Source: a virus (lineage: Duplodnaviria > Caudoviricetes). From it: DNA of 64,000 nt. The position numbers were made by a program, and so were the translations under genes. The notes below the pieces were generated by a model. That model did no database searches. It saw only the letters and a list, made by a program, of their open reading frames with translations, and was not told the DNA's origin. This document shows positions 3,914 through 56,038 of the stretch, piece after piece; within the stretch, counting starts at the first letter, position 1, and every line of letters starts with the position of its first letter. The stretch spans positions 1 through 64,000 of the IMG/VR virus record IMGVR_UViG_3300029288_000085; one strand, written 5' to 3'.

Positions 3914-5404
3914 ATGAAACTACCAAAAAACTTTTCTACTATCGGCTTAAAATTCTACCCATTTCAACTAGAGACCTTCTTATTTTCAATACGACAAAAT
4001 AATACAGGGCTACTACTTGAAATGGGAACTGGTAAAAGTATGATATCTATTAACGTAGCTAGATATAGAATACAATTTGATAAAATAAGAAAAGTGTTAG
4101 TAGTTTGCCCATCAAGCGTTATATACAATTGGAAAACAAATATTGAGAAACTATCTGAATACAAACCTACAATACTACATGACACACGGATTAATAGACT
4201 TAAAAATCTCAATGAAGATTATAGATTTGGGATTATAAATTATGAATCGTTGTTTCCTTTATTAAAAGATCTTAGAGTAATAAGTGAAGAACCACCATTC
4301 ATTATACATCATAACTATAAGGAAATGCTTAATGATCTGCAATTTGATATGATTATCTTTGATGAATCAGCAAAATTTATTCGTAATCATAGTGCTAGAA
4401 GAACTATAGCTAGTACTTTATTTGCTGATACTGCAAAGTATAAAATGATTTTAACTGGAACACCTATTGCTAATAGACCGAACAATTTATGGTCTCAATT
4501 TAGAGTTTTAGATGGGGGTGAATCTTTTGGAAGAAGTTATGAAGTATTTAAAAATGTCTTTTTCTACAAAGATCCGAATGACCATTTTGGAAGGCTCTAT
4601 CTAAGGTTAGATAAGATAGAAGATATGAAAAAAAGGATTTATACCAGATGTATTAGAAAGACAAAAAAGGAAGTTTTACCAGATCTACCAGAACAAATAC
4701 ATAACACCTTAGAGATAGAAATGTCCTCTTCACTAGAGAATCTCTATAAAGAAGTAAAACGTAGTATTCTCTCGGAGATTGAAACGGAAGAGGGGATAAC
4801 AACATTAAGGATAAATAATATTCTATTAAGATTGATGAGACTACAACAAATAACAAGTGGATTTACAGCAGGGGAAAATCATACGACTGTAGAACTAACT
4901 GAGCAACCAAAATTAAATGCACTCATTGAGCATATAGAGATAATTCTCGAAGAAGAATCGTCAGTAATTGTTTGGTGTAGATTTCGCAAATCAATATCAA
5001 TGATTGCAAAACAACTTAATAGACTAAAAATACCTTTTACTGCAATGACAGGAGATGATAATGAGAAAATAAAGTATGAAAAATGGAAAGGATTTCAAGA
5101 AAGTAGTACTGTAAATGTATTCATAGGACAGATTGAAGCGGGTGGTATCGGAATTGAACTATTCAAGTTGGATTCTAAACCATATGAAAAACAGTATACC
5201 TTTTTCTACGAAAATGTATTCACTCTTGATACAAGAGAACAAGCAATAAGTAGACCTCATAGGATTGGGCAAAAGAGTATATGTATATACACTGACTTTG
5301 TATTAAAGAATACTATAGATGAGAAAATACTGAGATCAGTAGAAAATAAAAAGAATATTGCAGATGTAATCTTAGGAGATGGAGTACATAAATTTTTAGA
5401 ATAA
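3914..5404 (+). CDS. SNF2-family (SF2) helicase
   Basis: EMGTGKS, FDES, LTGTP and QAISRPHRIGQ motifs. Confidence 0.88.
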   Translation: MKLPKNFSTIGLKFYPFQLETFLFSIRQNNTGLLLEMGTGKSMISINVARYRIQFDKIRKVLVVCPSSVIYNWKTNIEKLSEYKPTILHDTRINRLKNLNEDYRFGIINYESLFPLLKDLRVISEEPPFIIHHNYKEMLNDLQFDMIIFDESAKFIRNHSARRTIASTLFADTAKYKMILTGTPIANRPNNLWSQFRVLDGGESFGRSYEVFKNVFFYKDPNDHFGRLYLRLDKIEDMKKRIYTRCIRKTKKEVLPDLPEQIHNTLEIEMSSSLENLYKEVKRSILSEIETEEGITTLRINNILLRLMRLQQITSGFTAGENHTTVELTEQPKLNALIEHIEIILEEESSVIVWCRFRKSISMIAKQLNRLKIPFTAMTGDDNEKIKYEKWKGFQESSTVNVFIGQIEAGGIGIELFKLDSKPYEKQYTFFYENVFTLDTREQAISRPHRIGQKSICIYTDFVLKNTIDEKILRSVENKKNIADVILGDGVHKFLE

Positions 5405-23316: not shown

Positions 23317-24889
23317 AGAAAGGTGAATGGTTAATTATGAAAAAAAATAAAACGCACACGTTCAAATGCAACTCTTGTACCGGATCTCGATGCCCCTTTT
23401 CTGAAAAACAAATGAAGAAACTAGCTGATAGTTCACAATGTAAATTTTATGCTACCTCCTCTCAATGGAAAGTGCCAATGTTGTATTCCATACTGAATAG
23501 TAATAATGGACCAACAAAATTAGCTGAATTGTTACGAAGACATAAAATGTTGTTTAGGGAAACAAGTAGATATCCACATTTTGAATTAACATTTTAGATG
23601 AGGTTTGATGTGAAGAAAGGTAAAATTTGTTATTATTGTACTCATTTTCATGCTGATGTTGATAGTATAATAGCACGGGCAGATGGTGAAGAGATAATTG
23701 TAAAAAGTAAATGTCCAATAAAGAATACAATTATCACTGATAGTGATGAAGCATGTAATAAATTCAATCTAGTTGATTATTTCTATTGCTCGAAAAAGGA
23801 ACAACGAGCACAGATGAAATTATGTTTAGCACGAAGAGAAAAGAAAATGGAAGGTTGTGTGAGGTGTTCACAAGGTAAATATATAGAGGAGGTATTATTA
23901 GATGCGAGAAAATGATGGGGGGTGGGATTTTGTAAAGTTAGGTGGTATTTATCAGTATAAAGAAGAAGGAGTAATTTATATAGTTGAAATTATAGAAGAT
24001 AAGTCAACTGAAAAAGAATACAAATTTGTATTAAAACCTCTTGCGTGTACATTATACTCTCTTAAACCTTTTGAAATATCTTTTGTGAAGAATAATACTG
24101 GATATTGGAATAATATGCCACAATTTTATGAAGAGGCTGAATATGTCCTGTTACCTATTGGTACTCCTTGGCCCTATGTAATAGACAATAAATATAAATA
24201 TGTGGGAATACATCATAGTCTGGAGGAATTAACAGATGAAAATAATAAAAGTATCTGAAGATAGAAATTCTTATTACCTTACAACAGATGATTCTACAGG
24301 ATTTAGGTTACTGAAAAAATATAAAGTAGTTCCTAAAGTTGGGGATGATATTGAGGTTCAAACAGTACATTTCTCTACAGTTAGAGGTATTATCTTAAAT
24401 GGTAAACAAATCTTCTATAAAACTGATGAGGATTTAGAGAAAGAACATCAGAATTGGTTAGATAAAAATGAAAAAAAGAAGCAACGTCTCTTTATAAGAA
24501 ATAAACCAAAATTAGATAAAGATTATAACACTCTTCCTGAAGAATTTAAGAAAAGAATTGACAAATTTAGAATGACAAATCCAAGATTTAGAGTAGATTA
24601 TGAACCATATGAAATGTTTTGTTGTAAAGAAGCTCTGAAGATCGCTAAAGCTTTAAAAGGAAAGACAGAAGAAGAAGTACAAAATTTCTCAAAGGCTGAT
24701 TATACAATTCAAAAGCAAACTGTACCAAAATTAGGTAAAGGACATAGTGGAAATACTTTTGGTGTGGCAGTGAGATTAGCTTATTGGTATCTATTTAATC
24801 CAGAAAATGTGATCTTGGAGCATGGAGCATTAACCACATTAGTAGGTTGTGATGCATATGGTTGCCCACATGAAAAGAAAGAGGGATAG

Positions 24890-25360
24890 ATGGAAAAATT
24901 TGATAAAGATTCAGATGATATAGATTTGGAACTGATTATTGATGACTCGTCAGCACATAAATTATCTGAGGCTATAAAGGTAGGACCACGCAAAGCAGCA
25001 AAATATGTTAGGCTTTCTGCGGCTGCAAATAAGAAAGTAAAGCAATTAGAATTAGCAGAAAAAGTGCTATTAGCTGAATTAATAGGTGCAAGAGGAACAA
25101 TGTCAGCAACAGCTAGACAGGAATTAAGAAAAGGGGGGTTAGCTTCAGATGAACGGGTTCAGAAGCTAGAACAGGAAATTATAGATGCACAGGAAGAAGC
25201 TGATATCTTAAATGGATTAGTATCCGTGTGGACAGGAAGACAGTACTCATTTAAAGAATTAGTTAAATTAATGGATAGGATATTATCAGAGCAATTTGGT
25301 TTTGTTTCTCCAGAAAAGAAGAGTAAGGAGTTGGAAAAAATATTTGAGGAAGGGTCTTGA
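24890..25360 (+). CDS. Possible UvsY-like recombination mediator
   Basis: Helical/coiled-coil, DLxI N-terminus; RecA and gp32-like genes nearby. Confidence 0.35.
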   Translation: MEKFDKDSDDIDLELIIDDSSAHKLSEAIKVGPRKAAKYVRLSAAANKKVKQLELAEKVLLAELIGARGTMSATARQELRKGGLASDERVQKLEQEIIDAQEEADILNGLVSVWTGRQYSFKELVKLMDRILSEQFGFVSPEKKSKELEKIFEEGS

Positions 25361-25386
25361 CAACTTTTTTCAAAGAAAATGCATCT

Positions 25387-25420
25387 TACCCCTTGACTTT
25401 TTAGGTATCATTCTTATCTT
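25387..25420 (+). promoter_or_regulatory. Sigma70-like promoter TTGACT-N16-TATCTT, candidate driver of the RNA-array/DUF2828/cas12f island
   Basis: TACCCCTTGAC-N6-GGTAT-N5-TTATCTT; matches 7872-7905. Confidence 0.6.
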
Positions 25421-25445
25421 GTAGGGCAAGGAAGTAAGACTTAGA

Positions 25446-25496
25446 AGGTTGAGTACAGCAATACAAATCCACTACAAATGGGAAAATTCTCAACCT
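25446..25496 (+). ncRNA. CAGCAA/anticodon-mimic unit 1 (loop CT-ACA-AA, Cys-like with A34)
   Basis: Outer stem AGGTTGAG/CTCAACCT; TACAGCAA; inner TCCA-CTACAAA-TGGG. Confidence 0.75.
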
Positions 25497-25508
25497 GTTT
25501 AAATTAGA

Positions 25509-25573
25509 ACAAAGGTTTCAGCAAACAAACAGACATATCAATTGGGATGATAAAACGTCAAAAAAGCCTTTGT
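25509..25573 (+). ncRNA. Unit 2 (loop AT-TGG-GA, Pro)
   Basis: ACAAAGGTTT/AAGCCTTTGT; TCAGCAA; TATCA-ATTGGGA-TGATA. Confidence 0.78.
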
Positions 25574-25586
25574 GTAATTAGTTAGA

Positions 25587-25648
25587 AGATTGGTTCCGGC
25601 AAAAATAAATGGCATAGACTATTAATCTATATACCAAAAAGCCAATCT
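25587..25648 (+). ncRNA. Unit 3 (loop CT-ATT-AA, Asn-like with A34)
   Basis: AGATTGGTT/AGCCAATCT; CCGGCAA variant; ATAGA-CTATTAA-TCTAT. Confidence 0.75.
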
Positions 25649-25673
25649 GAAATTTAAAAAGGAGAACCATAAA

Positions 25674-27149
25674 ATGAGCAAAAGAAAAATCAGTTCTACT
25701 ATGACAAAGAAAGTAAATCTTCCTACTCGTAAAACGTGGGAAGGTGCGAATGCTTATGAGCATTCCCTTGATAATCATTTAGAGTTCTTTTCTAAGGCAG
25801 GTTCCTTATTTGAGAATCGTAAATCATTTTATGGTGCTCAATCTGAGAGTACTGCATTATCTTTATTCCAACAGATGTGGGCTTCTGGAAAACCAGAATT
25901 AGCTATGAAATTATTGTTCTGGTTGCGTGATTGTAGAGGTGGGGCAGGAAATAGGTCAGGATTTAGAAGTATAATTCAATGGCTTGCTAGTTCTAATGAT
26001 TCTAAATGGCTTGATGCAAATCTAATTCTCGTACCAAAATATGGAAGGTGGGATGATTTGAGATCGTTGTTTGGAACAGAACTACAAACCCAAGCTGCTG
26101 AATTGTGGGGCAGTTCTGTATTAGCTAATGATGTATTAGCTACAAAATGGGCTGATAGGCGTGATTTACCTATCTTTTTCTACATTCGTTCTAAAATCAA
26201 TATTTCAGACATAGGAGAGTTTCGCAGATTATTAAGTAGTGTACGTAAACAGCATATTGTAGAACACAAGATGTGTTCAAGCCAATGGAATGAGATTCAA
26301 TATCCTCATGTTCCTTCTGTAGCAATGGCTAGATATACAAAAGCCTTTGGTCGTCACGATGAGCAAAGGTTCACACAGTATAAAGAAGATCTAAAATCTG
26401 GTAAACAGGAGATCAAAGCAGAGGTACTTTTTCCTCATGACTGTGTTAGAACTGCTCGATTTGGTGATGAAGCTATTGCTGACGCTCAATTTGACGCTCT
26501 CCCCAATTATTTAGGGGAGAGCAATGAGCGTATTATTGTAATAGCCGATACTTCAGGTTCAATGAATGTGGTTTTAAGTGGTTCTATTCATAATATGGAT
26601 ATATCACAAGGATTGGCATTATACTGTTCTTCAAGAATTCCAAAGGATAGTCCTTTTCATAAGAAGTTTATTGGTTTTGAGAGTGAAAGTCAGTTTAAAG
26701 ATTGGGAGGGAATGACATTTTCTGAAGCAATAGGTGATAGAGAAATATTTGATGGTGCTTGTGGTTCAACTAGAATTGATACGGCATTAGATCTTATTTT
26801 AAAAACAGCAAAATTCTTTAAGATTCCACAAGAATTAATGCCAACAACACTTCTTATAGTGTCAGATATGCAGTTCCATCAAGGTGGGTCATTATCTAAT
26901 GATACAGAAGTTGAAGCATGTCTTAAGAAATTCCAAGCTTCAGGATATAAACCACCTAAAGTAGTATACTGGAACCTAGAGGGGTATCAAGGGCAACAAG
27001 CTACAAAAGATATGAAGAATGTTGGTATGGTTTCAGGATTTTCACCTTCAATTTTAAAAGCTATTTTTGGTGGTACAGCATTTGATCCAATAAGCATAAT
27101 GCTTAGAGCTGTTGAGAAGTACGAGATTCAAACACCGTATGTTAATTAA
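25674..27149 (+). CDS. DUF2828-family TROVE/Ro60-like protein with C-terminal vWA domain
   Basis: LFWLRDCRGGAG.R, YGRWDDL, VPSVAM..Y.KAF.RHD; DTSGSM (MIDAS); SDMQF, YWNL, VSGFSP. Confidence 0.85.
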   Translation: MSKRKISSTMTKKVNLPTRKTWEGANAYEHSLDNHLEFFSKAGSLFENRKSFYGAQSESTALSLFQQMWASGKPELAMKLLFWLRDCRGGAGNRSGFRSIIQWLASSNDSKWLDANLILVPKYGRWDDLRSLFGTELQTQAAELWGSSVLANDVLATKWADRRDLPIFFYIRSKINISDIGEFRRLLSSVRKQHIVEHKMCSSQWNEIQYPHVPSVAMARYTKAFGRHDEQRFTQYKEDLKSGKQEIKAEVLFPHDCVRTARFGDEAIADAQFDALPNYLGESNERIIVIADTSGSMNVVLSGSIHNMDISQGLALYCSSRIPKDSPFHKKFIGFESESQFKDWEGMTFSEAIGDREIFDGACGSTRIDTALDLILKTAKFFKIPQELMPTTLLIVSDMQFHQGGSLSNDTEVEACLKKFQASGYKPPKVVYWNLEGYQGQQATKDMKNVGMVSGFSPSILKAIFGGTAFDPISIMLRAVEKYEIQTPYVN

Positions 27150-27152
27150 TGA

Positions 27153-27208
27153 AGGTTTGCTTCAGCAATAAAAATATTAGACTTGAAATCTAACTAAAAT
27201 GCAAACCT
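27153..27208 (+). ncRNA. Unit 4 (loop CT-TGA-AA, Ser)
   Basis: AGGTTTGC/GCAAACCT; TTCAGCAA; TTAGA-CTTGAAA-TCTAA. Confidence 0.8.
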
Positions 27209-27222
27209 GTATTAATTTTAAT

Positions 27223-27272
27223 GGAATGGTTTCAGCAAAAAACATGGTCTGAAACACCAACAAAGCCATTCC
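27223..27272 (+). ncRNA. Unit 5 (loop CT-GAA-AC, Phe)
   Basis: GGAATGGTTT/AAGCCATTCC; TCAGCAA; TGGT-CTGAAAC-ACCA. Confidence 0.78.
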
Positions 27273-27282
27273 GTGAATTATA

Positions 27283-27350
27283 AGGAAGGTTACAGCAAAC
27301 AATATATTATATAATAACTGACAAAGTTATCAAATAATAAAAGCCTTCCT
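27283..27350 (+). ncRNA. Unit 6 (7-nt loop TGACAAA; Val GAC-like or ACA, register ambiguous)
   Basis: AGGAAGGTT/AGCCTTCCT; ACAGCAA; ATAAC-TGACAAA-GTTAT. Confidence 0.7.
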
Positions 27351-27361
27351 GTTAATATGAA

Positions 27362-27415
27362 ACATTGGTTTCAGCAAACAAAAATAAATCATATGGGATG
27401 ATAAAAAGCCAATGT
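27362..27415 (+). ncRNA. Unit 7 (loop TA-TGG-GA, Pro-like)
   Basis: ACATTGGTTT/AAGCCAATGT; TCAGCAA; ATCA-TATGGGA-TGAT. Confidence 0.75.
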
Positions 27416-27464
27416 GAAATTAGGATGTTAAGATGGAAAGGTGGATTAAAGGGAGAAAGATATA

Positions 27465-28781
27465 ATGCAAAAAGATGTAAGAGCTATCAAACTTTACTTC
27501 CATAAACCTTTAGTTAAAGATTGGAAAGAAGTATCTCCTTTATTAAATGATATTAGTTACAAAGTGACTAGAGGATTAAATAGTTGTATGAGTGAGTGGT
27601 ATATGTGGCAATCAAATATTGAAAGGGCTAGAAAGAAAAATATAGAATTTAACTTGGCTGAAGCAAGGGAAAATGAAAGAACTAGACAATATAAAATGAT
27701 AAGAGAAATGTTTCCTGAATTATATTCAGGATTAGCTGACTCTATTAAAGAAACAGCATTTAAGAAGTGGAAGAATGAGTGTAAAGATGTTTTCTATGCT
27801 CAAAGAAAATCCTTATCTTCCTATAAAAAAGGAAAATTAATACCACTCCATGATCAATCTTATTCTGTTGGGAGGATAAATAAAGAAGTAATTCTCAATA
27901 TGAGTTTGTTTTCAAAGCAATCTGATTCTTCTAATAAAGATATGAAATTTGTATTAAAGACACAAAAGATAGATGGTAGTACAAGACATGTTTTAGAACA
28001 AATTTTAAAAGGTAATTTCGTTAAAAAGGCGGGTAGTCTAAAAAAAGATAGTCGTGGTAGAACATATGTAAATATTGCCTATGAAAAACCACATGACCCA
28101 ATCAAAGGTCTAGATCCAGAGAAGATTGTAGGTGTTGATTTAGGAGTTGCACATTCTTTTTATTGTGCTGTAAATTCAACATTAGATTCTATAAAAAGTG
28201 AAGATGGTCATCTTCTTGAAAGATTTCGGAATCAAATACGAAGACTTAGAAAGGGTATACAATCATCATATAGATTATCCAATAGTAGAAAAGGTAAAGG
28301 TAGAGTATATGCCTTAAAACCTTTAAACAGATTAAGAGACAAAGAAAAAAGATTTCGAGATACTTATTGTCATAACTGTAGTAGAATCATTGTCGATTTT
28401 GCAGCAAAAGTTGGTGCTGGTATAATCCAAATGGAAGATTTATCTAGTATGAAATCATTAAAAGTACATGATAAATTTCTTTCCGGGTGGCCTATTGCAG
28501 ATTTACAAAACAAAATTGAGTACAAAGCAAATGAGTATGGTATTGAAGTAAAAAAAGTAAATCCACAATATACAAGTCAAAGATGTTCATCTTGTGGTCA
28601 CATCTCATCTGAAAATCGAGAGAAGATGAGCAGGGAATTTAAGTGTGTTAGATGTGGGGTGGAGATGGATGCTGATTATAATGCTGCAAAGAACTTGAGT
28701 ATTAGAGGAATAGATGAAATCATCAAAAATGCGAACCTAAAGTTGACAGAAAATCTTAGTGAGGTTCGCACAAATGTGTAA
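27465..28781 (+). CDS. cas12f1: Cas12f1 (type V-F) miniature effector, RuvC intact
   Basis: VGVDLG, IQMEDL, VNPQYTSQRCSSCG, FKCVRCG, DADYNAAKN; collinear with AsCas12f1 as recalled (KP...DWKE N-terminus); adjacent tracrRNA and array. Confidence 0.88.
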   Translation: MQKDVRAIKLYFHKPLVKDWKEVSPLLNDISYKVTRGLNSCMSEWYMWQSNIERARKKNIEFNLAEARENERTRQYKMIREMFPELYSGLADSIKETAFKKWKNECKDVFYAQRKSLSSYKKGKLIPLHDQSYSVGRINKEVILNMSLFSKQSDSSNKDMKFVLKTQKIDGSTRHVLEQILKGNFVKKAGSLKKDSRGRTYVNIAYEKPHDPIKGLDPEKIVGVDLGVAHSFYCAVNSTLDSIKSEDGHLLERFRNQIRRLRKGIQSSYRLSNSRKGKGRVYALKPLNRLRDKEKRFRDTYCHNCSRIIVDFAAKVGAGIIQMEDLSSMKSLKVHDKFLSGWPIADLQNKIEYKANEYGIEVKKVNPQYTSQRCSSCGHISSENREKMSREFKCVRCGVEMDADYNAAKNLSIRGIDEIIKNANLKLTENLSEVRTNV

Positions 28782-46434: not shown

Positions 46435-47079
46435 GTGGTTTATGTGTACTTTATTTCTGATTTACATTTGGGAGTGAGGGATAAAAAAGATGATTTTCAA
46501 GAGAGTGTGCTAGAATGTCTAAGATTTTTAGTTTCTATCCCTAATAAAAGTTTAGTTCTTGTGGGCGATATTTATGATTTGTGGGAGAATGATTATAGTG
46601 AGATTTATGATAAGTATGAGAATCTTATTGATATTTTAGAGGCAAAAAAATATGCTTATATTATAGGGAACCATGATTCTAAGATTAGTAAATCTTTTAG
46701 TGAAAAACTAATCATAAATGATACATTAGTAATGCATGGACATCAATTTGATTTTGCAAATAAAGGAAAGGGTTTTATTGGTAGATGGATGACTAAGATG
46801 GTATCTTGGATGGAAAAACGAATTTGGTCTGACATAGATATACCATTTTTTAAATTTGAAATGTGGATTAAACGTCATGGAAAGTATGCCAATGCAAAAA
46901 CATTTCAAGATGTAGCTTTTGATTATATTAATGATTATAATGTGGATGATAGAAAGATAAAGCGGATTATAACAGGGCATACTCATCAGTTAGATCATGC
47001 TGTTAGAGGTGAACTTGAATATTATAACTGTGGAACATGGACTAATGGGCATAAGGATGTGTGGGAGATTAACATATGA
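46435..47079 (+). CDS. Calcineurin-like metallophosphoesterase (LpxH-like)
   Basis: SDLHLG, GDIYDLW, GNHD, HGHQFD, GHTH, N.GTW. Confidence 0.8.
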   Translation: MVYVYFISDLHLGVRDKKDDFQESVLECLRFLVSIPNKSLVLVGDIYDLWENDYSEIYDKYENLIDILEAKKYAYIIGNHDSKISKSFSEKLIINDTLVMHGHQFDFANKGKGFIGRWMTKMVSWMEKRIWSDIDIPFFKFEMWIKRHGKYANAKTFQDVAFDYINDYNVDDRKIKRIITGHTHQLDHAVRGELEYYNCGTWTNGHKDVWEINI

Positions 47080-47711
47080 CTGAATATCCTAAAATTAATA
47101 CTGTCTTCAAACGTGATATATCTACTAAATTTAAGACTATTATTGATGGTGGGTGGTCTCAATCTGAATTTGAATATCTAGCTAATAATATGTGGATTTT
47201 CACTGAAAAGGTAGATGGTACAAATATTAGAGTGATGTGGAATAATGAAAATAAAATACTTACTTTTGGTGGTAAGACAGATAATGCCCAAATACCTGCA
47301 TTTTTAGTAAATAAGCTTCAACAGATGTTTAAACTTGAAGTGTTTGATTCCATGTTTGATGCTTCGGTTTGTCTTTATGGTGAGGGTTATGGTGCAAAGA
47401 TTCAAAAAGGTGGGGGAAACTATAGACAGGATCAGAGTTTTGTTTTATTTGATGTGAAGATAGAAAATTGGTGGTTACAAAGGAAGGATGTAGTAGATCT
47501 AGCTTCAAAATTAGGAATTGAAGTTGTTCCTATTATTGGATTAGGTACTCTTTTTAATATGGTTGAACTAGTTAAAAAAGGATTTCAGTCTACTTGGGGA
47601 AGTTTTGAAGCTGAAGGTGTTGTGGCTAGACCTGAAGTAGAACTTCAAACAAGAAGTGGTAATAGAATAATAACTAAGTTGAAGTGTAAGGATTTTAGAA
47701 ATAATGAGTAA
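47076..47711 (+). CDS. ATP-dependent RNA ligase (Rnl2-like adenylation domain)
   Basis: YPKI, TEKVDGTN, GEGYG, FDV, EGVV, KLK. Confidence 0.82.
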   Translation: MTEYPKINTVFKRDISTKFKTIIDGGWSQSEFEYLANNMWIFTEKVDGTNIRVMWNNENKILTFGGKTDNAQIPAFLVNKLQQMFKLEVFDSMFDASVCLYGEGYGAKIQKGGGNYRQDQSFVLFDVKIENWWLQRKDVVDLASKLGIEVVPIIGLGTLFNMVELVKKGFQSTWGSFEAEGVVARPEVELQTRSGNRIITKLKCKDFRNNE

Positions 47712-52324: not shown

Positions 52325-52932
52325 AGGAATAACTATTTAAGCGGGGTTAAAATAATGAAAAAGCATTTTGTAGTTTTTTGTAGCCCTGGTACTTTTTTTG
52401 ATGAAATAACAGAAAAACCAATAGAATCATGGAATGTTAAAGAAGCTATTAAAATGTCTACAGCAATAAAAGAACGTCATGGAGCAACTCCTTTTGGATT
52501 TTATTTTATAACTAGAGAACGTGGTAAAAATGATTTAGATAGTCACATTTCTAAAACTAGTGGAACCTATTTTTTAGGTGGACAAATTCTTACTTTGAAT
52601 GAAGTAAAAGCATTAAATAATAAGGATTATAGAATCCTTATATCAAATATGGAAGGTAATGAAATAGATAGAATAATTATTAACACAAATTCATGGAAAG
52701 TTCATAAGCCTTTTATGAAAGGCGACACGTTGTTAAATGTAAATATGGAGGAGTGATAATATCAATTTGTCTAAAACAGAAAGAATTGAAAGAGATCCCT
52801 ATGCACATATTCGTAGGGAAATTCCAAAGCCAGGATTTCCTTTTGGAACTAGAAAATATTTACGGCTAAAAGAAAGATTATCAGAAAAGCAATTAATATT
52901 TGAAGGACTAGGAGATTATATAGAAGAAACGG

Positions 52933-54234: not shown

Positions 54235-54969
54235 ATGTATAAAATTCTTATTTTCTTGGTTTCATTTTTATTTATTTTTGGTGCATGTGCAACCTTTAAC
54301 ACCCAAAAAGGAATTCCTGGTACAACACACAATGTTAAAATAACAGTTGAGTCAGCTAATGATAGTAATGTAAATATTGAAAAAGATAAGATAGTTAAGA
54401 CACAACAAATTCCATATAGTGAACCTGAGTTTAAACCACCTACATTCCAGTTAGGTGATACTGTTTATATTCCAATTTGGAGTGGAATTGATACAAATGA
54501 TACATTATCTTTATGGAATACAATTAACATAGCAAAGTATAAGAAATTAACAAAATTGTATATTTATATAAATTCAGGTGGTGGATCAGTATTTGCCGGA
54601 TTAGGACTTTCGGATGTATTACTTGCAGCAAAGAAAGATGGATTTGAAATTACAACAGAGGCAAACGGTATAGTAGCAAGTGCAGCAGTTACAGTATTTA
54701 TAGTAGGAGATAAAGGAAAAAGAATTGCAACAAAAGGTACAGTATTTATGCTTCATAGAGGAAAGATGTTTAAACTCTTTTCTGAAGAAACAAAAGATGA
54801 TCTTAGAGCACAGCAAGAAATGTTTGCAATTGTTGATGCTAGATATAATAAACTAATTTCAGATAGTTCCAATCTTTCAGAACAAGAAGTAGAAAATAAA
54901 TGTAATTATACAACATGGTTCACAGCAGATGAAGCTCTTGAATGGGGATTAGTTGACATAGTAAAATAA
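54235..54969 (+). CDS. ClpP-family protease with lipoprotein signal
   Basis: FGAC lipobox; YINSGGGSV, ASAA (Ser), MLH (His), WFTADEALEWGLVD. Confidence 0.8.
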   Translation: MYKILIFLVSFLFIFGACATFNTQKGIPGTTHNVKITVESANDSNVNIEKDKIVKTQQIPYSEPEFKPPTFQLGDTVYIPIWSGIDTNDTLSLWNTINIAKYKKLTKLYIYINSGGGSVFAGLGLSDVLLAAKKDGFEITTEANGIVASAAVTVFIVGDKGKRIATKGTVFMLHRGKMFKLFSEETKDDLRAQQEMFAIVDARYNKLISDSSNLSEQEVENKCNYTTWFTADEALEWGLVDIVK

Positions 54970-55112: not shown

Positions 55113-55961
55113 ATGCTTTGTATTTATCATAATGATCTAGATGGAAAATGTGCTGCTGCAATAGTAAACTATAAATATCCTGACTGCAAAATGTTAGAAA
55201 TGGATTACAAGAATGATTATAATCTAGAGGAAATTGCTAAGGAAGATAAGATTTTTATTCTTGACTTTGCTTTACAGCCACTTAATCAAATGCTTAAGTT
55301 ATGGGAAATAAATAAGAATGTTGTTTGGATAGATCATCATAAATCAAATATAGACTTTTGCACGATTAACACTATCGTTAATAATATTAATGGAATACGT
55401 GAGATTGGCAAATCAGGTTGTGAATTAACGTGGGAGTATCTCTTCCCAGAACGGAAAATTCCTCTAACTGTTAAATTACTAGGAAGGTATGATGTATATG
55501 ATTTTACTGATGATAGAACTTTGCCATTCCAATATGGAATGAGATTACTTGACACAAAACCAAATAGTGAAGAGTGGAAAGTTCATTTTCATAAGTATAT
55601 AGATCTTACTGTAGAAAAATATATTGAGTATATTCAGAGTATAGTTGATGAAGGTAATATAGTACTAAAATACATATCTGAAGAAGATGAACTATATTGT
55701 AAACAATATGCCTTTCCTATGACATTTGAAGGATATAATTGTGTCGTTCTTAATAGAGGATTATCAAATGTTAAGGTATTTGACTCAAGGTCAAAAGATT
55801 ATCAGATAATGATTGCATATGTATTTGATGGTAGAAAATATGCTGTTTCTTTGTATACAATTGATACTACAATTGATGTGTCAGCAATAGCAAAGAAGTA
55901 TAAGGGTGGTGGTCATAAGTCGGCTGCGGGATTTGTGACAGAAAAGTTGCCTTGGGGATAA
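55113..55961 (+). CDS. DHH/DHHA1 phosphoesterase
   Basis: YH.DLDG, LDF, IDHH, GGGH.SAAGF. Confidence 0.88.
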   Translation: MLCIYHNDLDGKCAAAIVNYKYPDCKMLEMDYKNDYNLEEIAKEDKIFILDFALQPLNQMLKLWEINKNVVWIDHHKSNIDFCTINTIVNNINGIREIGKSGCELTWEYLFPERKIPLTVKLLGRYDVYDFTDDRTLPFQYGMRLLDTKPNSEEWKVHFHKYIDLTVEKYIEYIQSIVDEGNIVLKYISEEDELYCKQYAFPMTFEGYNCVVLNRGLSNVKVFDSRSKDYQIMIAYVFDGRKYAVSLYTIDTTIDVSAIAKKYKGGGHKSAAGFVTEKLPWG

Positions 55962-55966
55962 AATAT

Positions 55967-56038
55967 GCGGGGATAGACTTAACGTAAAGGACTTGCTTTC
56001 CAAGCAGGAGGTTGATAGCTCGTTGCTATCTCCCCGCT
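55967..56038 (+). tRNA. Atypical tRNA-Gly(TCC), CCA not encoded
   Basis: GCGGGGA/TCCCCGC + U73; CTTGC-TTTCCAA-GCAGG; T stem GATAG/CTATC but loop CTCGTTG; D loop lacks GG. Confidence 0.75.

What the first reader, a model, noticed from the sequence alone, without database searches (positions are those of the whole stretch)
25446..27415. Array of seven anticodon-stem-loop mimic RNAs flanking a Ro60/TROVE-like (DUF2828) gene: candidate new ribonucleoprotein system
SEEN: seven intergenic units (25446, 25509, 25587 | gene | 27153, 27223, 27283, 27362) share one architecture. It runs: 8-10 bp outer stem, CAGCAA (CGGCAA once) directly 3' of the 5' strand, A-rich linker, inner 4-5 bp hairpin with a 7-nt loop, A-rich linker, 3' strand, then G(T/A). 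Outer stems differ in sequence but always pair; units 2 and 7 show compensatory change (ACAAAGG/CCTTTGT vs ACATTGG/CCAATGT), so structure rather than sequence is conserved. The 7-nt loops read like anticodon loops: CT-ACA-AA, AT-TGG-GA (Pro, with the Pro-typical G37), CT-ATT-AA, CT-TGA-AA (Ser), CT-GAA-AC (Phe), TGACAAA (ambiguous), TA-TGG-GA (Pro). There are no D, T or acceptor arms, so these are not tRNAs. KNOWN: Ro60/Rsr TROVE-vWA rings bind a conserved helix of Y RNAs encoded beside the gene; bacterial YrlA RNAs mimic the tRNA D/T/acceptor part. Anticodon nucleases (PrrC, RloC, VapC, colicin E5/D-type, PARIS AriB) cut anticodon loops, several as anti-phage effectors. INFERENCE: the DUF2828 protein binds the constant stem+CAGCAA handle and displays a variable panel of anticodon loops. 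These could be decoys or inhibitors of host tRNases, or guides for repair enzymes: a Y-RNA-like scaffold with programmable tRNA specificity. I know of no description of this RNA family.
Basis: partly seen in the sequence, partly recalled or inferred. Interest (0 to 1): 0.96.

Follow-up and report, generated by a model that had tools for sequence, protein, structure and literature searches.

The report
Anticodon-arm RNAs flanking Ro60-like phage gene
A 144-kb phage encodes a ring-shaped Ro60-like protein flanked by seven small folded RNAs that share one conserved "handle" and each carry a hairpin built like a tRNA anticodon arm; they are probably the protein's partner RNAs, in an RNA family I found in neither Rfam nor the papers searched.

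Summary
All seven units lie where stated, on the gene's strand. Each has an 8-10 bp terminal stem, then U-W-CAGCAA (CGGCAA once), a variable middle, the 3' strand and a (C)UG tail.

A covariance model built from four units recovers the other three. In 82 loci holding related genes, 196 of 196 matches lie on the gene's strand, mostly within about 100 nt of the gene. The terminal stem covaries strongly.

The 491-aa DUF2828/DUF7788 protein is predicted with high confidence to have the full Ro60 fold, although it shows no sequence match to TROVE.

Seven-nt loops are about five-fold enriched in short cargos. Their position-by-position composition matches that of real tRNA genes in the same loci. 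The central triplet is random even between units with identical hairpin stems.

Binding to the protein and any decoy or repair role remain inference. Rfam has no family above threshold. The nearest sub-threshold match is the Dictyostelium Class I RNA, which has the same layout, but homology is unproven. Other cargos in the family are T-arms or YrlA-like bodies.

This scan has already noted the family on other DNA, in more than 130 genomes. I found no publication describing it.

The parts
25393..25420 (+). Sigma-70-like promoter candidate (TTGACT, 16 nt, TATCTT) about 25 nt upstream of U1. It could drive the U1-U3, gene and U4-U7 stretch as one transcript.
   Evidence: This is a consensus match only (9 of 12 positions). 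No terminator-like site lies between it and U7.
25446..25498 (+). Unit U1. Stem AGGTTGAG/CTCAACCT, motif TACAGCAA, inner hairpin 25467-25483 with loop CT-ACA-AA, tail GT.
   Evidence: R1 60.3 bits, R2 52.1 bits, RF01414 17.6 bits.
25509..25577 (+). Unit U2. Stem ACAAAGGTT/AGCCTTTGT, motif TCAGCAA, inner hairpin 25536-25552 (TATCA AT-TGG-GA TGATA) inside a further GAC/GTC stem, tail GT.
   Evidence: Held out of model R1 and still found at 41.1 bits. R2 44.1 bits. Sequence.
25587..25652 (+). Unit U3. Stem AGATTGGTT/AGCCAATCT, motif CCGGCAA (the one CGGCAA variant), inner hairpin 25614-25630 (ATAGA CT-ATT-AA TCTAT), tail GA. It ends 22 nt before the gene's ATG, directly ahead of the Shine-Dalgarno sequence.
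   Evidence: Held out of R1 and found at 31.8 bits. R2 36.4 bits. Fold.
25674..27149 (+). Gene for the 491-aa DUF2828/DUF7788 protein, predicted as a Ro60-like helical-repeat ring plus a vWA domain with an invariant DxSxS MIDAS motif.
   Evidence: Pfam DUF7788 4e-30 and DUF2828 2e-28. PHROG 850 'RNA-binding protein' 1e-99. AlphaFold2 pLDDT 90.4, pTM 0.90. Foldseek top hits are all Ro60, full length, TM 0.64/0.61, E 1e-9. Invariant residues.
27153..27210 (+). Unit U4. Stem AGGTTTGC/GCAAACCT, motif TTCAGCAA, inner hairpin 27177-27193 (TTAGA CT-TGA-AA TCTAA), tail GT. It starts 4 nt after the stop codon.
   Evidence: R1 66.3 bits, R2 58.3 bits. It is the best RF01414 match in the genome, at 21 bits.
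27223..27274 (+). Unit U5. Stem GGAATGGTT/AGCCATTCC, motif TCAGCAA, inner hairpin 27244-27260 (TGGT CT-GAA-AC ACCA), tail GT.
   Evidence: R1 58.4 bits, R2 49 bits. Fold z-score -2.5.
27283..27352 (+). Unit U6. Stem AGGAAGGTT/AGCCTTCCT, motif ACAGCAA, long inner arm with apical hairpin 27314-27330 (ATAAC TG-ACA-AA GTTAT; a 5-nt loop is also possible), tail GT.
   Evidence: Held out of R1 and found at 35 bits. R2 46.5 bits. Fold z-score -4.1. RF01414 20.9 bits.
27362..27417 (+). Unit U7. Stem ACATTGGTT/AGCCAATGT, motif TCAGCAA, inner hairpin 27387-27403 (AATCA TA-TGG-GA TGATA; a 5-nt loop is also possible), tail GA. It is a paralogue of U2 with two compensated stem pairs.
   Evidence: R1 67.5 bits, R2 58.3 bits. 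Sequence.

Best explanation
The seven units are genes, or processed segments of one transcript, for small structured RNAs of a widespread phage RNA family. They play the part that Y RNAs play for Ro60: they are the partner RNAs of the neighbouring Ro60-like DUF2828 protein. Each RNA has two modules. The constant 'handle' is a terminal helix with conserved A-G-R-W-U / A-W-Y-C-U pairs, the single-stranded U-W-CAGCAA next to its 5' strand, and a 3' (C)UG(U) tail. It is the likely docking site for the protein ring. The variable 'cargo' in this phage is a hairpin built like a tRNA anticodon arm: a 4-5 bp stem and a 7-nt loop with C32, U33, A/G37 and A38, carrying different triplets (ACA, UGG, AUU, UGA, GAA). 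The particle would therefore present a panel of anticodon-arm look-alikes. Shown here: the RNA family, its structure, its strict linkage to the gene, the protein's predicted Ro60 fold, and the anticodon-arm signature. Inferred: that the protein binds the handle, that the units are cut into separate RNAs, and that the particle acts in the contest over tRNAs. In that contest it would most plausibly bind, trap or mis-direct enzymes that read anticodon loops, such as host anticodon nucleases, or help to deal with cleaved tRNAs.
For: Structure: in 21 units from eight phages the terminal stem is 94% paired, and 8 of 9 pairs show changes on both sides. Slid controls give 29-47% pairing, and 0 of 500 shuffles reach the observed covariation score. 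C12, G14 and C15 of the motif and the tail G are invariant in 150 of 150 aligned units.

Linkage: model R1 gives 62 of 62 matches on the gene's strand and model R2 gives 196 of 196, in 82 loci whose proteins are 31-63% identical to this one. Of the best 150 matches, 116 lie upstream (median gap 106 nt) and 19 downstream (median gap 39 nt). In five phage genomes of 210-394 kb, 13 of 18 matches sit next to the gene. In this genome there are only 8 matches at E<=1. Units lie beside the gene in cultured Listeria, Staphylococcus, Campylobacter, Mycobacterium, Bacillus and E. coli phages, with 19 of 19 on the gene's strand.

Protein: the Ro60 fold is predicted over the full length. A Felix O1-type homologue, Bas63 gp130, is reported as Ro60-like and as a counter to the Ppl defence system (PMC11482910).

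Link to Y RNAs: one mycobacteriophage unit carries a cargo that matches Rfam YrlA over its full length at 39.3 bits, E 2e-5.

Anticodon arm: among 89 short cargos the best hairpin has a 7-nt loop in 27, against 5.6+-2.1 in shuffles. With a stem of at least 5 bp the count is 21 against 2.6+-1.6. The stem is exactly 5 bp in 19 of 27. The 26 distinct loops have C32 65%, U33 77%, A37 88%, A38 81% and A34 8%, on a background of A 45%, C 17% and T 30%. Binomial tails range from 5e-8 to 2e-4. The 132 distinct anticodon arms of real tRNA genes in the same loci give C32 61%, U33 98%, A34 4%, A37 89% and A38 85%. Units with identical hairpin stems share the triplet at 0.30 identity, against a random expectation of 0.27, while the loop flanks share 0.64.

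Context: this phage carries an adjacent metallophosphoesterase and Rnl2-type RNA ligase, and the Listeria phage has an RtcB ligase 1.3 kb from its units.
Against: There is no direct evidence of transcription, processing or protein binding.

Single-sequence folding z-scores are modest, from -1.3 to -4.1, and the inner hairpins are weak A/U-rich helices.

About two thirds of short cargos have no clean 7-nt-loop hairpin. Other cargos are T-arms, long tRNA-like bodies or nearly nothing, so anticodon display cannot be the family's universal function.

Three of this phage's seven triplets begin with A34 (ACA twice, AUU), which real bacterial tRNAs rarely do. U6 and U7 lack U33.

In several relatives a single unit lies between the promoter and the ribosome-binding site, which also fits a cis-regulatory role.

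Units from related phages are not independent, so the binomial tails overstate significance.

Vibrio phage D485 has the gene but no unit within 2.5 kb.
Confidence: 0.7

Rival explanations
1. The units are cis-acting operators in the DUF2828 mRNA, not stand-alone RNAs. The protein, or another factor, would bind the handle in the leader and trailer of its own transcript to control translation or stability, as many RNA-binding proteins do.
For: U3 ends 22 nt before the ATG, directly ahead of the Shine-Dalgarno sequence. In L013, L014 and L018 a single, minimal unit lies between a sigma-70-like promoter and the ribosome-binding site, and the L014 unit has no inner hairpin. No terminator separates the units from the gene.
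Against: Arrays of three to six units with different cargos are hard to explain as operators. Units also lie downstream of the gene. In Felix O1-type phages they sit inside the tRNA array, where flanking tRNA processing would release them. Some lie more than 100 kb from the gene. The anticodon-arm signature and the YrlA-like cargo serve no obvious purpose in an operator. The two roles are not exclusive.
Confidence: 0.15
2. The units are true homologues of the Dictyostelium Class I RNAs (Rfam RF01414), so the family is already known under that name.
For: The layout is the same: a terminal stem closed by a conserved 5' G, UUACAGCAA directly 3' of the 5' strand, a variable middle, a 3' CUGU and a length of 50-70 nt (PMC7919456). 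The three best RF01414 matches in the whole 144-kb genome are U4, U6 and U1. In four of five other phage genomes the top RF01414 match is one of the units. One phage unit reaches 35.2 bits.
Against: Every match is below the family's gathering score of 41.5 bits; the window's units score 17.6-21. Sub-threshold matches also turn up in 7-8 of 14 control genomes. The shared motif is short and could be convergent. The Dictyostelium promoter element and the known binder Rnp1A have no counterpart here. I could not establish whether dictyostelids encode a DUF2828 protein. A later check recorded in this scan's notes put a bold reading of a related finding at 6 in 100.
Confidence: 0.1
3. The units are decayed tRNA-derived repeats or generic intergenic stem-loops (processing signals, terminators) with no dedicated protein partner.
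For: Their hairpins look like tRNA anticodon arms, tRNA genes are common in related loci (145 predicted in 37 loci), and the region is A/T-rich.
Against: An invariant single-stranded motif, a covarying stem and strand-specific linkage to one gene family across host phyla are not expected from decay products. None is followed by a T-run. C32, U33, A37 and A38 are kept while the triplet is free, which points to selection on loop architecture.
Confidence: 0.04
4. U4-U7 belong to the TnpB/IS200-605-type element whose gene starts 48 nt after U7, as transposon end hairpins or guide-RNA parts.
For: The ORF at 27465-28781 has Cas12f1-like TNB and OrfB_IS605 domains, and such elements have structured ends.
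Against: Identical units lie upstream of the DUF2828 gene. The family tracks DUF2828 in over 80 loci, and I saw no TnpB next to it in the loci I inspected. TnpB guide RNAs lie at the 3' end of tnpB, not upstream. Rfam reports no transposon RNA here.
Confidence: 0.01

Closest known systems
Ro60 (Rsr/TROVE2) with Y RNAs, especially bacterial and phage YrlA/YrlB (Rfam RF02553; Chen et al. 2014, PMC4201824) and Thermus phage phiLo Ro60 with Yrl1/Yrl2 (PMC12135203)
   Same: The protein is a ring of helical repeats plus a vWA/MIDAS domain (predicted fold). The small RNAs are encoded within a few hundred bases on the same strand. Their 5' and 3' ends form a helix with a conserved motif on the 5' side. 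The rest of each RNA is variable and copies tRNA parts. One mycobacteriophage member carries a YrlA-like body on the CAGCAA handle.
   Different: There is no sequence match to TROVE or to any solved Ro60. The conserved motif is U-W-CAGCAA plus a (C)UG tail, not GGUCCGA or GNCGAAN0-1G. The window's cargos mimic the anticodon arm, the one tRNA part that YrlA lacks. The RNAs are shorter (52-70 nt) and come in arrays of up to seven. No partner nuclease such as PNPase is implied by any data here.
Dictyostelium Class I RNAs (Rfam RF01414; Kjellin et al. 2021, PMC7919456)
   Same: Length of 42-65 nt, a short terminal stem with a conserved 5' G, the motif CCUUACAGCAA next to the 5' strand, a variable remainder and a 3' CUGU. 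The Dictyostelium model picks the phage units as its best matches in this genome and in four of five others.
   Different: Scores lie below the curated threshold. The phage stems are longer (8-10 bp against about 6). Only 8 of the 11 motif positions are shared. Class I RNAs are eukaryotic, have their own upstream promoter element, and the only protein reported there to bind them directly is an RRM protein. They are reported as unique to Dictyostelia.
Bas63 (Felixounavirus) gp130, a Ro60-like counter to the Ppl defence system (PhageMaP preprint, PMC11482910)
   Same: From the preprint's description (Ro60-like, directly upstream of the tRNA stretch), gp130 appears to be the counterpart of the Felixounavirus DUF2828 genes found here. 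The authors guessed that some neighbouring 'tRNA genes' might be Y RNAs.
   Different: They did not identify the RNAs. In a Felix O1-type phage the handle-bearing units lie between the tRNA genes, not within them. This window's phage has no tRNA array at the locus.
tRNA anticodon stem-loops as minimal ligands of anticodon nucleases and other anticodon-loop-reading enzymes (my own knowledge, not tested here)
   Same: A 5-bp stem and a 7-nt loop with U33 and a purine at 37, with position-specific composition close to that of real tRNAs.
   Different: There is no tRNA body. Some triplets (ACA, AUU) are not normal bacterial anticodons. The arm is grafted onto a protein-docking handle.

Membership tests
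Ro60 / TROVE protein family | Ring of alpha-helical (HEAT-like) repeats closed by a vWA domain with a MIDAS motif | tested here: met
   AlphaFold2 model with pLDDT 90.4. The top 12 PDB matches are Ro60 proteins aligned over the full length, TM 0.64/0.61, E 1e-9. DxSxS is invariant in 45 homologues. The fold is predicted, not solved.
Ro60 / TROVE protein family | Sequence match to the Pfam TROVE domain or to solved Ro60 proteins | tested here: not met
   Pfam reports only DUF2828 and DUF7788. phmmer against all PDB sequences finds no Ro60 even at E up to 10.
Y RNA / YrlA (RF02553) | Encoded next to the Ro60-type gene on the same strand, with the 5' and 3' ends forming a helix | tested here: met
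Y RNA / YrlA (RF02553) | Ro-binding motif GGUCCGA or GNCGAAN0-1G, and a match to the Rfam model | tested here: not met
   The conserved motif is U-W-CAGCAA. YrlA does not appear in the window even at E up to 10. It matches only the cargo of one mycobacteriophage unit, at 39.3 bits against a gathering score of 69.
Y RNA / YrlA (RF02553) | Physical binding to the ring protein | not testable with these tools
   Needs EMSA, immunoprecipitation or a structure.
Dictyostelium Class I RNA (RF01414) | Terminal stem with a conserved 5' G pairing with the C of a 3' CUGU | tested here: met
   G at stem position 2 in 143 of 150 units and its partner C in 143 of 150. The tail G is invariant, and the next base is U in 98 of 150.
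Dictyostelium Class I RNA (RF01414) | 11-nt motif CCUUACAGCAA directly 3' of the 5' strand | tested here: inconclusive
   U-W-CAGCAA is shared (8 of 11 positions). The first three positions are part of the paired stem in the phage units.
Dictyostelium Class I RNA (RF01414) | Score at or above Rfam's gathering threshold of 41.5 bits | tested here: not met
   The window's units score 21, 20.9 and 17.6 bits. The best phage unit seen scores 35.2 bits.
Dictyostelium Class I RNA (RF01414) | Upstream DUSE promoter element and binding by Rnp1A/CIBP | not testable with these tools
   These are eukaryote-specific features (PMC7919456). No dictyostelid sequence is available in these tools.
tRNA | Cloverleaf with acceptor, D and T arms | tested here: not met
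   ARAGORN and Rfam call no tRNA in 24800-28000.
Anticodon stem-loop (as a structural mimic) | 5-bp stem and 7-nt loop with pyrimidine 32, U33, purine 37 and A38 | tested here: met
   In the window, all seven hairpins can be drawn with a 7-nt loop and a purine at 37. Five have U33, and the stems are 4-5 bp. Across the family, the 7-nt-loop enrichment and position-specific composition match real tRNAs.

The most novel reading that the evidence does not exclude
The locus encodes a programmable display system for anticodon arms. A Ro60-like ring docks onto a constant RNA handle, and each RNA presents one tRNA anticodon-arm look-alike. The triplets diversify freely on a conserved scaffold under arms-race selection. 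The panel traps, blocks or redirects host enzymes that read anticodon loops, above all the anticodon nucleases used as anti-phage defences, or it marks the matching cleaved tRNAs for repair. A bolder extension is that the orphan Class I RNAs of Dictyostelium are the eukaryotic branch of the same handle and also work with a DUF2828-type ring.
Probability: 0.2. Interest if true: 0.92.

Novelty: new variant of a known kind. Interest (0 to 1): 0.8.

Why it matters
Ro60 and its Y RNAs are an old puzzle: what the tRNA-like parts of bacterial Y RNAs do is still unknown.

This locus adds a second, sequence-unrelated branch of Ro60-shaped proteins. tblastn finds it in 708 phage records, and a profile search finds 1,220 protein clusters. 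It comes with its own RNA family, which is modular and easy to recognise. In this phage the RNAs carry the one tRNA part that YrlA lacks, the anticodon arm.

That ties the Ro-type particle directly to anticodon-loop biology, which is where many anti-phage nucleases and phage counter-measures act. One homologue is already reported to defeat a defence system.

The family occurs in easily handled phages (Felix O1/Bas63, P100-like Listeria phages, staphylococcal and mycobacterial phages), so the idea can be tested at the bench now.

It also gives the first concrete lead on the function of Dictyostelium Class I RNAs, if that likeness proves to be more than convergence.

Many of these RNAs are currently unannotated or called as tiny hypothetical ORFs.

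Tried and rejected
- MAFFT on all seven units, or with a Felix O1-type unit added, mis-aligned the 3' strands.
- Weak model matches at window 54614-54671 and 52450-52511 lie inside ORFs and were discarded as chance.
- Rfam at gathering threshold reports only two tRNAs in the window. At E up to 10 the other matches in the region (ceN23-1, ceN106, sR28) are noise.
- The sequence search of the PDB gave nothing relevant.
- The nucleotide search of the phage collection gave only two short matches.
- I tried four routes to learn whether Dictyostelium encodes a DUF2828 protein, and all failed. The ESM Atlas lists only viral and bacterial clusters. The search for longer homologues found none. The profile search returned 120 unnamed metagenomic proteins. 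Full-text searches for DUF2828 and PF11443 gave nothing useful. Avesson et al. 2011 is not held.
- RtcB is absent from this genome.
- I looked for a link between the CCGCAA motif variant and particular loci. Both variants occur within single genomes, so no co-variation test with the protein was possible.
- I ran no protein-RNA complex prediction, because the tool offers protein-protein pairs only.


Full report
**The locus.** The window is the first 64 kb of a complete 144,334-bp phage record with direct terminal repeats. The window is 32% G+C. The region lies in the replication and recombination module, which holds a primase-helicase, a family A DNA polymerase, a clamp-loader-like ATPase and RecA.

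ORF 25674-27149 (+) encodes a 491-aa protein. It matches Pfam DUF7788 (4e-30) and DUF2828 (2e-28), and PHROG 850 'RNA-binding protein' (1e-99).

Three repeat units precede the gene and four follow it, all on the + strand. They are separated by only 6-10 A/U-rich bases. A promoter-like site (TTGACT, 16 nt, TATCTT; 25393-25420) lies about 25 nt before U1. No terminator-like site interrupts the stretch. One transcript that is later cut into pieces is therefore plausible, but this is not shown.

- All seven minimum-energy folds contain the terminal stem. Z-scores against shuffles run from -1.3 to -4.1.
- A covariance model built only from U1, U4, U5 and U7, with only the terminal stem annotated, finds the held-out U2, U6 and U3 at 41, 35 and 32 bits. 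It finds nothing else credible in the 64 kb. The two weak extra matches lie inside ORFs.
- With the wider model R2, the whole genome yields eight matches at E<=1. These are the seven units plus one intergenic unit far outside the window, at genome position 113570-113652 on the minus strand. That unit scores 34.3 bits and has a CAGCCA variant of the motif.
- No tRNA is called in the region.

**The family and its link to the gene.** tblastn finds the protein in 708 phage records, including Felixounavirus, mycobacteriophages (annotated 'Ro-like RNA binding protein'), and Listeria, Staphylococcus, Campylobacter, Vibrio and Bacillus phages.

I fetched 15 and then 80 IMG/VR loci encoding relatives that are 31-63% identical.

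- Model R1 gave 62 matches at E<=0.05, all on the gene's strand.
- Model R2, rebuilt from those 62, gave 196 matches at E<=0.1, again all on the gene's strand.
- Of the best 150, 116 lie upstream of the gene (median gap 106 nt), 19 lie downstream (median gap 39 nt), and 65 of the 80 loci hold at least one.
- In five whole phage genomes of 210-394 kb, 13 of 18 matches are next to the gene.
- In cultured phages the units sit beside the gene in Listeria phage LMTA-57, Staphylococcus phage S-CoN_Ph3, Campylobacter phage F358, mycobacteriophage Clautastrophe, Bacillus phage FADO and E. coli phage vB_EcoM_H12. In the last they lie between tRNA genes. Vibrio phage D485 has none within 2.5 kb. All 19 matches are on the gene's strand.
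- On 21 units from eight phages the stem is 94% paired, and 8 of 9 pairs change on both sides, against 29-47% pairing when the partner is slid.
- In 150 aligned units, C, G and C of CAGCAA and the G of the 3' tail never vary. The outer stem pairs A-U, G-C and U-A are nearly fixed.

**The protein.** An AlphaFold2 model from a 45-sequence alignment is confident (pLDDT 90.4, pTM 0.90). Its best PDB matches are all Ro60: Xenopus and human Ro60, Thermus phage phiLo Ro60 and Deinococcus Rsr. They align over the full length (TM 0.64/0.61, E 1e-9, 13-18% identity). Isolated vWA domains follow far behind.

There is no sequence-level match to TROVE or to solved Ro60 proteins. The protein is therefore Ro60-shaped but not a recognisable TROVE member.

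The MIDAS motif DxSxS is invariant, and so is a set of basic residues in the N-terminal repeats: R85, R88, R94, R125, K158 and R184. These residues are candidates for handle binding, which is inference.

The PhageMaP preprint reports that Bas63 gp130 is Ro60-like, lies upstream of the tRNA genes and counters the Ppl defence system. The authors only guessed that some neighbouring 'tRNA genes' might be Y RNAs (PMC11482910).

**The anticodon-arm claim.** This is the part specific to this finding, so I tested it across the family.

- The cargo, meaning the stretch between CAGCAA and the 3' strand, has a median length of 36 nt. Among 149 distinct cargos, 89 are 45 nt or shorter.
- In those 89, the best hairpin has a 7-nt loop in 27 cases, against 5.6+-2.1 in shuffles. 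With a stem of at least 5 bp the count is 21 against 2.6+-1.6. No other loop size stands out apart from a weaker excess of 9-nt loops, many of which read as a 7-nt loop with an unpaired closing pair.
- The stem is exactly 5 bp in 19 of 27.
- The 26 distinct loops and the 132 distinct anticodon arms of real tRNA genes in the same loci compare as follows. The cargo background is A 45%, C 17%, G 9%, T 30%.

| Loop position | Unit loops | Real tRNA genes |
|---|---|---|
| C32 | 65% | 61% |
| U33 | 77% | 98% |
| 34 | T 46, G 27, C 19, A 8% | T 55, G 26, C 16, A 4% |
| A37 | 88% | 89% |
| A38 | 81% | 85% |

- The same stem, UUUCA/UGAAA, carries GUA, GUU, UAG, CAU, GCU, UCC and CAA in different freshwater phages, and GCU in a mycobacteriophage.
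- For 28 pairs of units with near-identical hairpin stems, triplet identity is 0.30 against a random expectation of 0.27. The four flanking loop positions share 0.64.

So the loop architecture is conserved and the triplet is free.

There are caveats. Related phages are not independent. The helices are weak. U6 and U7 of this window lack U33 and could close to 5-nt loops. ACA and AUU are not normal bacterial anticodons.

**Other cargos.** Anticodon arms are one class among several.

- One unit of the closest relative carries a T-arm-like hairpin, GAGGTTCGATCCCTC.
- Eleven of 46 long cargos contain a GTTCRANYC T-loop.
- A mycobacteriophage unit closes a body that matches Rfam YrlA over its full length, at 39.3 bits and E 2e-5, below the gathering score of 69.
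- Some leader units have almost no cargo.

This range ties the family to the Y-RNA idea of a docking helix plus tRNA mimicry. It also shows that the docking helix here is a different one.

**Mechanism.** I propose a Y-RNA-like particle.

- Shown: a modular RNA family, a covarying handle, strict co-location and co-orientation with a Ro60-fold protein, and cargos that copy tRNA parts.
- Inferred: that the ring binds the handle as Ro60 binds the conserved Y RNA helix, that host nucleases cut the array into single RNAs, and that the displayed anticodon arms engage proteins that read anticodon loops.

The most economical reading is a counter-defence role against tRNA-directed nucleases, as decoy, trap or repair platform. 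Three observations fit it:

- the reported anti-Ppl activity of the Bas63 homologue;
- the adjacent metallophosphoesterase and Rnl2-type RNA ligase in this phage (window 46435-47711);
- the RtcB ligase near the units in the Listeria phage.

I put about 0.7 on 'partner RNAs of the Ro60-like protein with anticodon-arm cargo' and about 0.2 on the specific decoy or display function. A cis-regulatory role for the leader unit (U3 here) may coexist with this.

**Comparison with known families.** Rfam 15 has no family above threshold here. The only recurring sub-threshold match is the Dictyostelium Class I RNA.

- U4, U6 and U1 are the three best matches to it in the whole genome, at 21, 20.9 and 17.6 bits.
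- In four of five other phage genomes the top match is also a unit.
- One unit reaches 35.2 bits against a threshold of 41.5.

The layout agrees point by point with the published description: a 5' G, a short terminal stem, CCUUACAGCAA beside the 5' strand, a variable rest, a 3' CUGU and a length of about 60 nt. That description calls the class 'unique to Dictyostelia' (PMC7919456).

However, control genomes also give sub-threshold matches. I could not determine whether dictyostelids have a DUF2828 protein. I therefore treat this as a resemblance, with homology at about 0.1.

**Novelty and earlier notes.** Full-text searches found no description of these RNAs. This scan's own notebook shows that the family was noted earlier on other DNA, in more than 130 genomes: phages, giant viruses, bacteria and an Asgard contig. 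Those notes include anticodon-mimic and tRNA-part cargos.

**Verdict.** The feature is real and conserved, and I found no publication describing it. It is a new variant of the Ro60/Y-RNA kind, and this phage is a particularly clean example of the anticodon-arm cargo class.

Noticed in passing
window 27465-28781 (+): A TnpB/Cas12f-like ORF of 438 aa (Cas12f1-like TNB 7.5e-25, OrfB_IS605; PHROG 506 'transposase') starts 48 nt after U7, with no obvious room for a left end. It may be an IS200/605-type insertion, or a domesticated copy, at the end of the RNA array.
   Followed up: partly
window 55967-56038 (+): A tRNA-like gene that Rfam calls (tRNA, 40.5 bits) but ARAGORN does not. It has an acceptor stem and a T arm, an anticodon loop UUUCCAA (UCC, Gly) and an odd D region. 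It lies 6 nt after a DHH/DHHA1 phosphoesterase gene (55113-55961).
   Followed up: partly
window 46435-47711 (+): Overlapping genes for a calcineurin-like metallophosphoesterase (214 aa) and an Rnl2-type RNA ligase (211 aa, PF09414, 64.6 bits). The pair looks like an RNA end-healing and sealing module. RtcB is absent from the genome.
   Followed up: partly
own genome G000:C1:113570-113652 (-), outside the window (L009 1501-1583): An eighth, remote unit in an intergenic gap. It has the stem AAGGTTGGA/TCCAACCTT, the motif TACAGCCA (A changed to C at a nearly invariant position), a 53-nt cargo and the tail GTGT. R2 scores it at 34.3 bits, E 5e-5.
   Followed up: partly
L010 2656-2800 (closest relative, 60-63% protein identity): One unit carries a T-arm-like hairpin (GAGGTTCGATCCCTC). 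It is followed by a handle-less tRNA-like piece with an acceptor stem and a T arm but no recognisable D or anticodon arm. The array there mixes several tRNA parts.
   Followed up: no
L106 925-1476 (Listeria phage LMTA-57): A ROOL RNA match just under threshold (88.5 bits against 99.1, E 1e-16) lies about 1 kb upstream of the DUF2828 gene and its three units. An annotated tRNA-splicing (RtcB) ligase lies 1.3 kb downstream.
   Followed up: no
L012 2888-2975: A unit whose cargo is a tandem repeat (TTTTTCAA, about five copies). This lets the 3' strand TCAATCT pair in several registers and may be a slippage-prone variant.
   Followed up: no
L107 3971-4318 (Staphylococcus phage S-CoN_Ph3): Three units directly downstream of the gene (L107 3983-4195) overlap or abut tiny 'hypothetical protein' CDSs of about 30-43 codons (3971-4060, 4190-4318). 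These RNAs are probably being mis-annotated as ORFs in deposited genomes.
   Followed up: no
window 27163-27192 (U4) and 27233-27252 (U5): In the minimum-energy folds of U4 and U5, the UUCAG of the handle motif pairs with the CUUGAA or CUGAA of the anticodon-like loop. This alternative fold could be chance, or a switch between free and protein-bound states.
   Followed up: no
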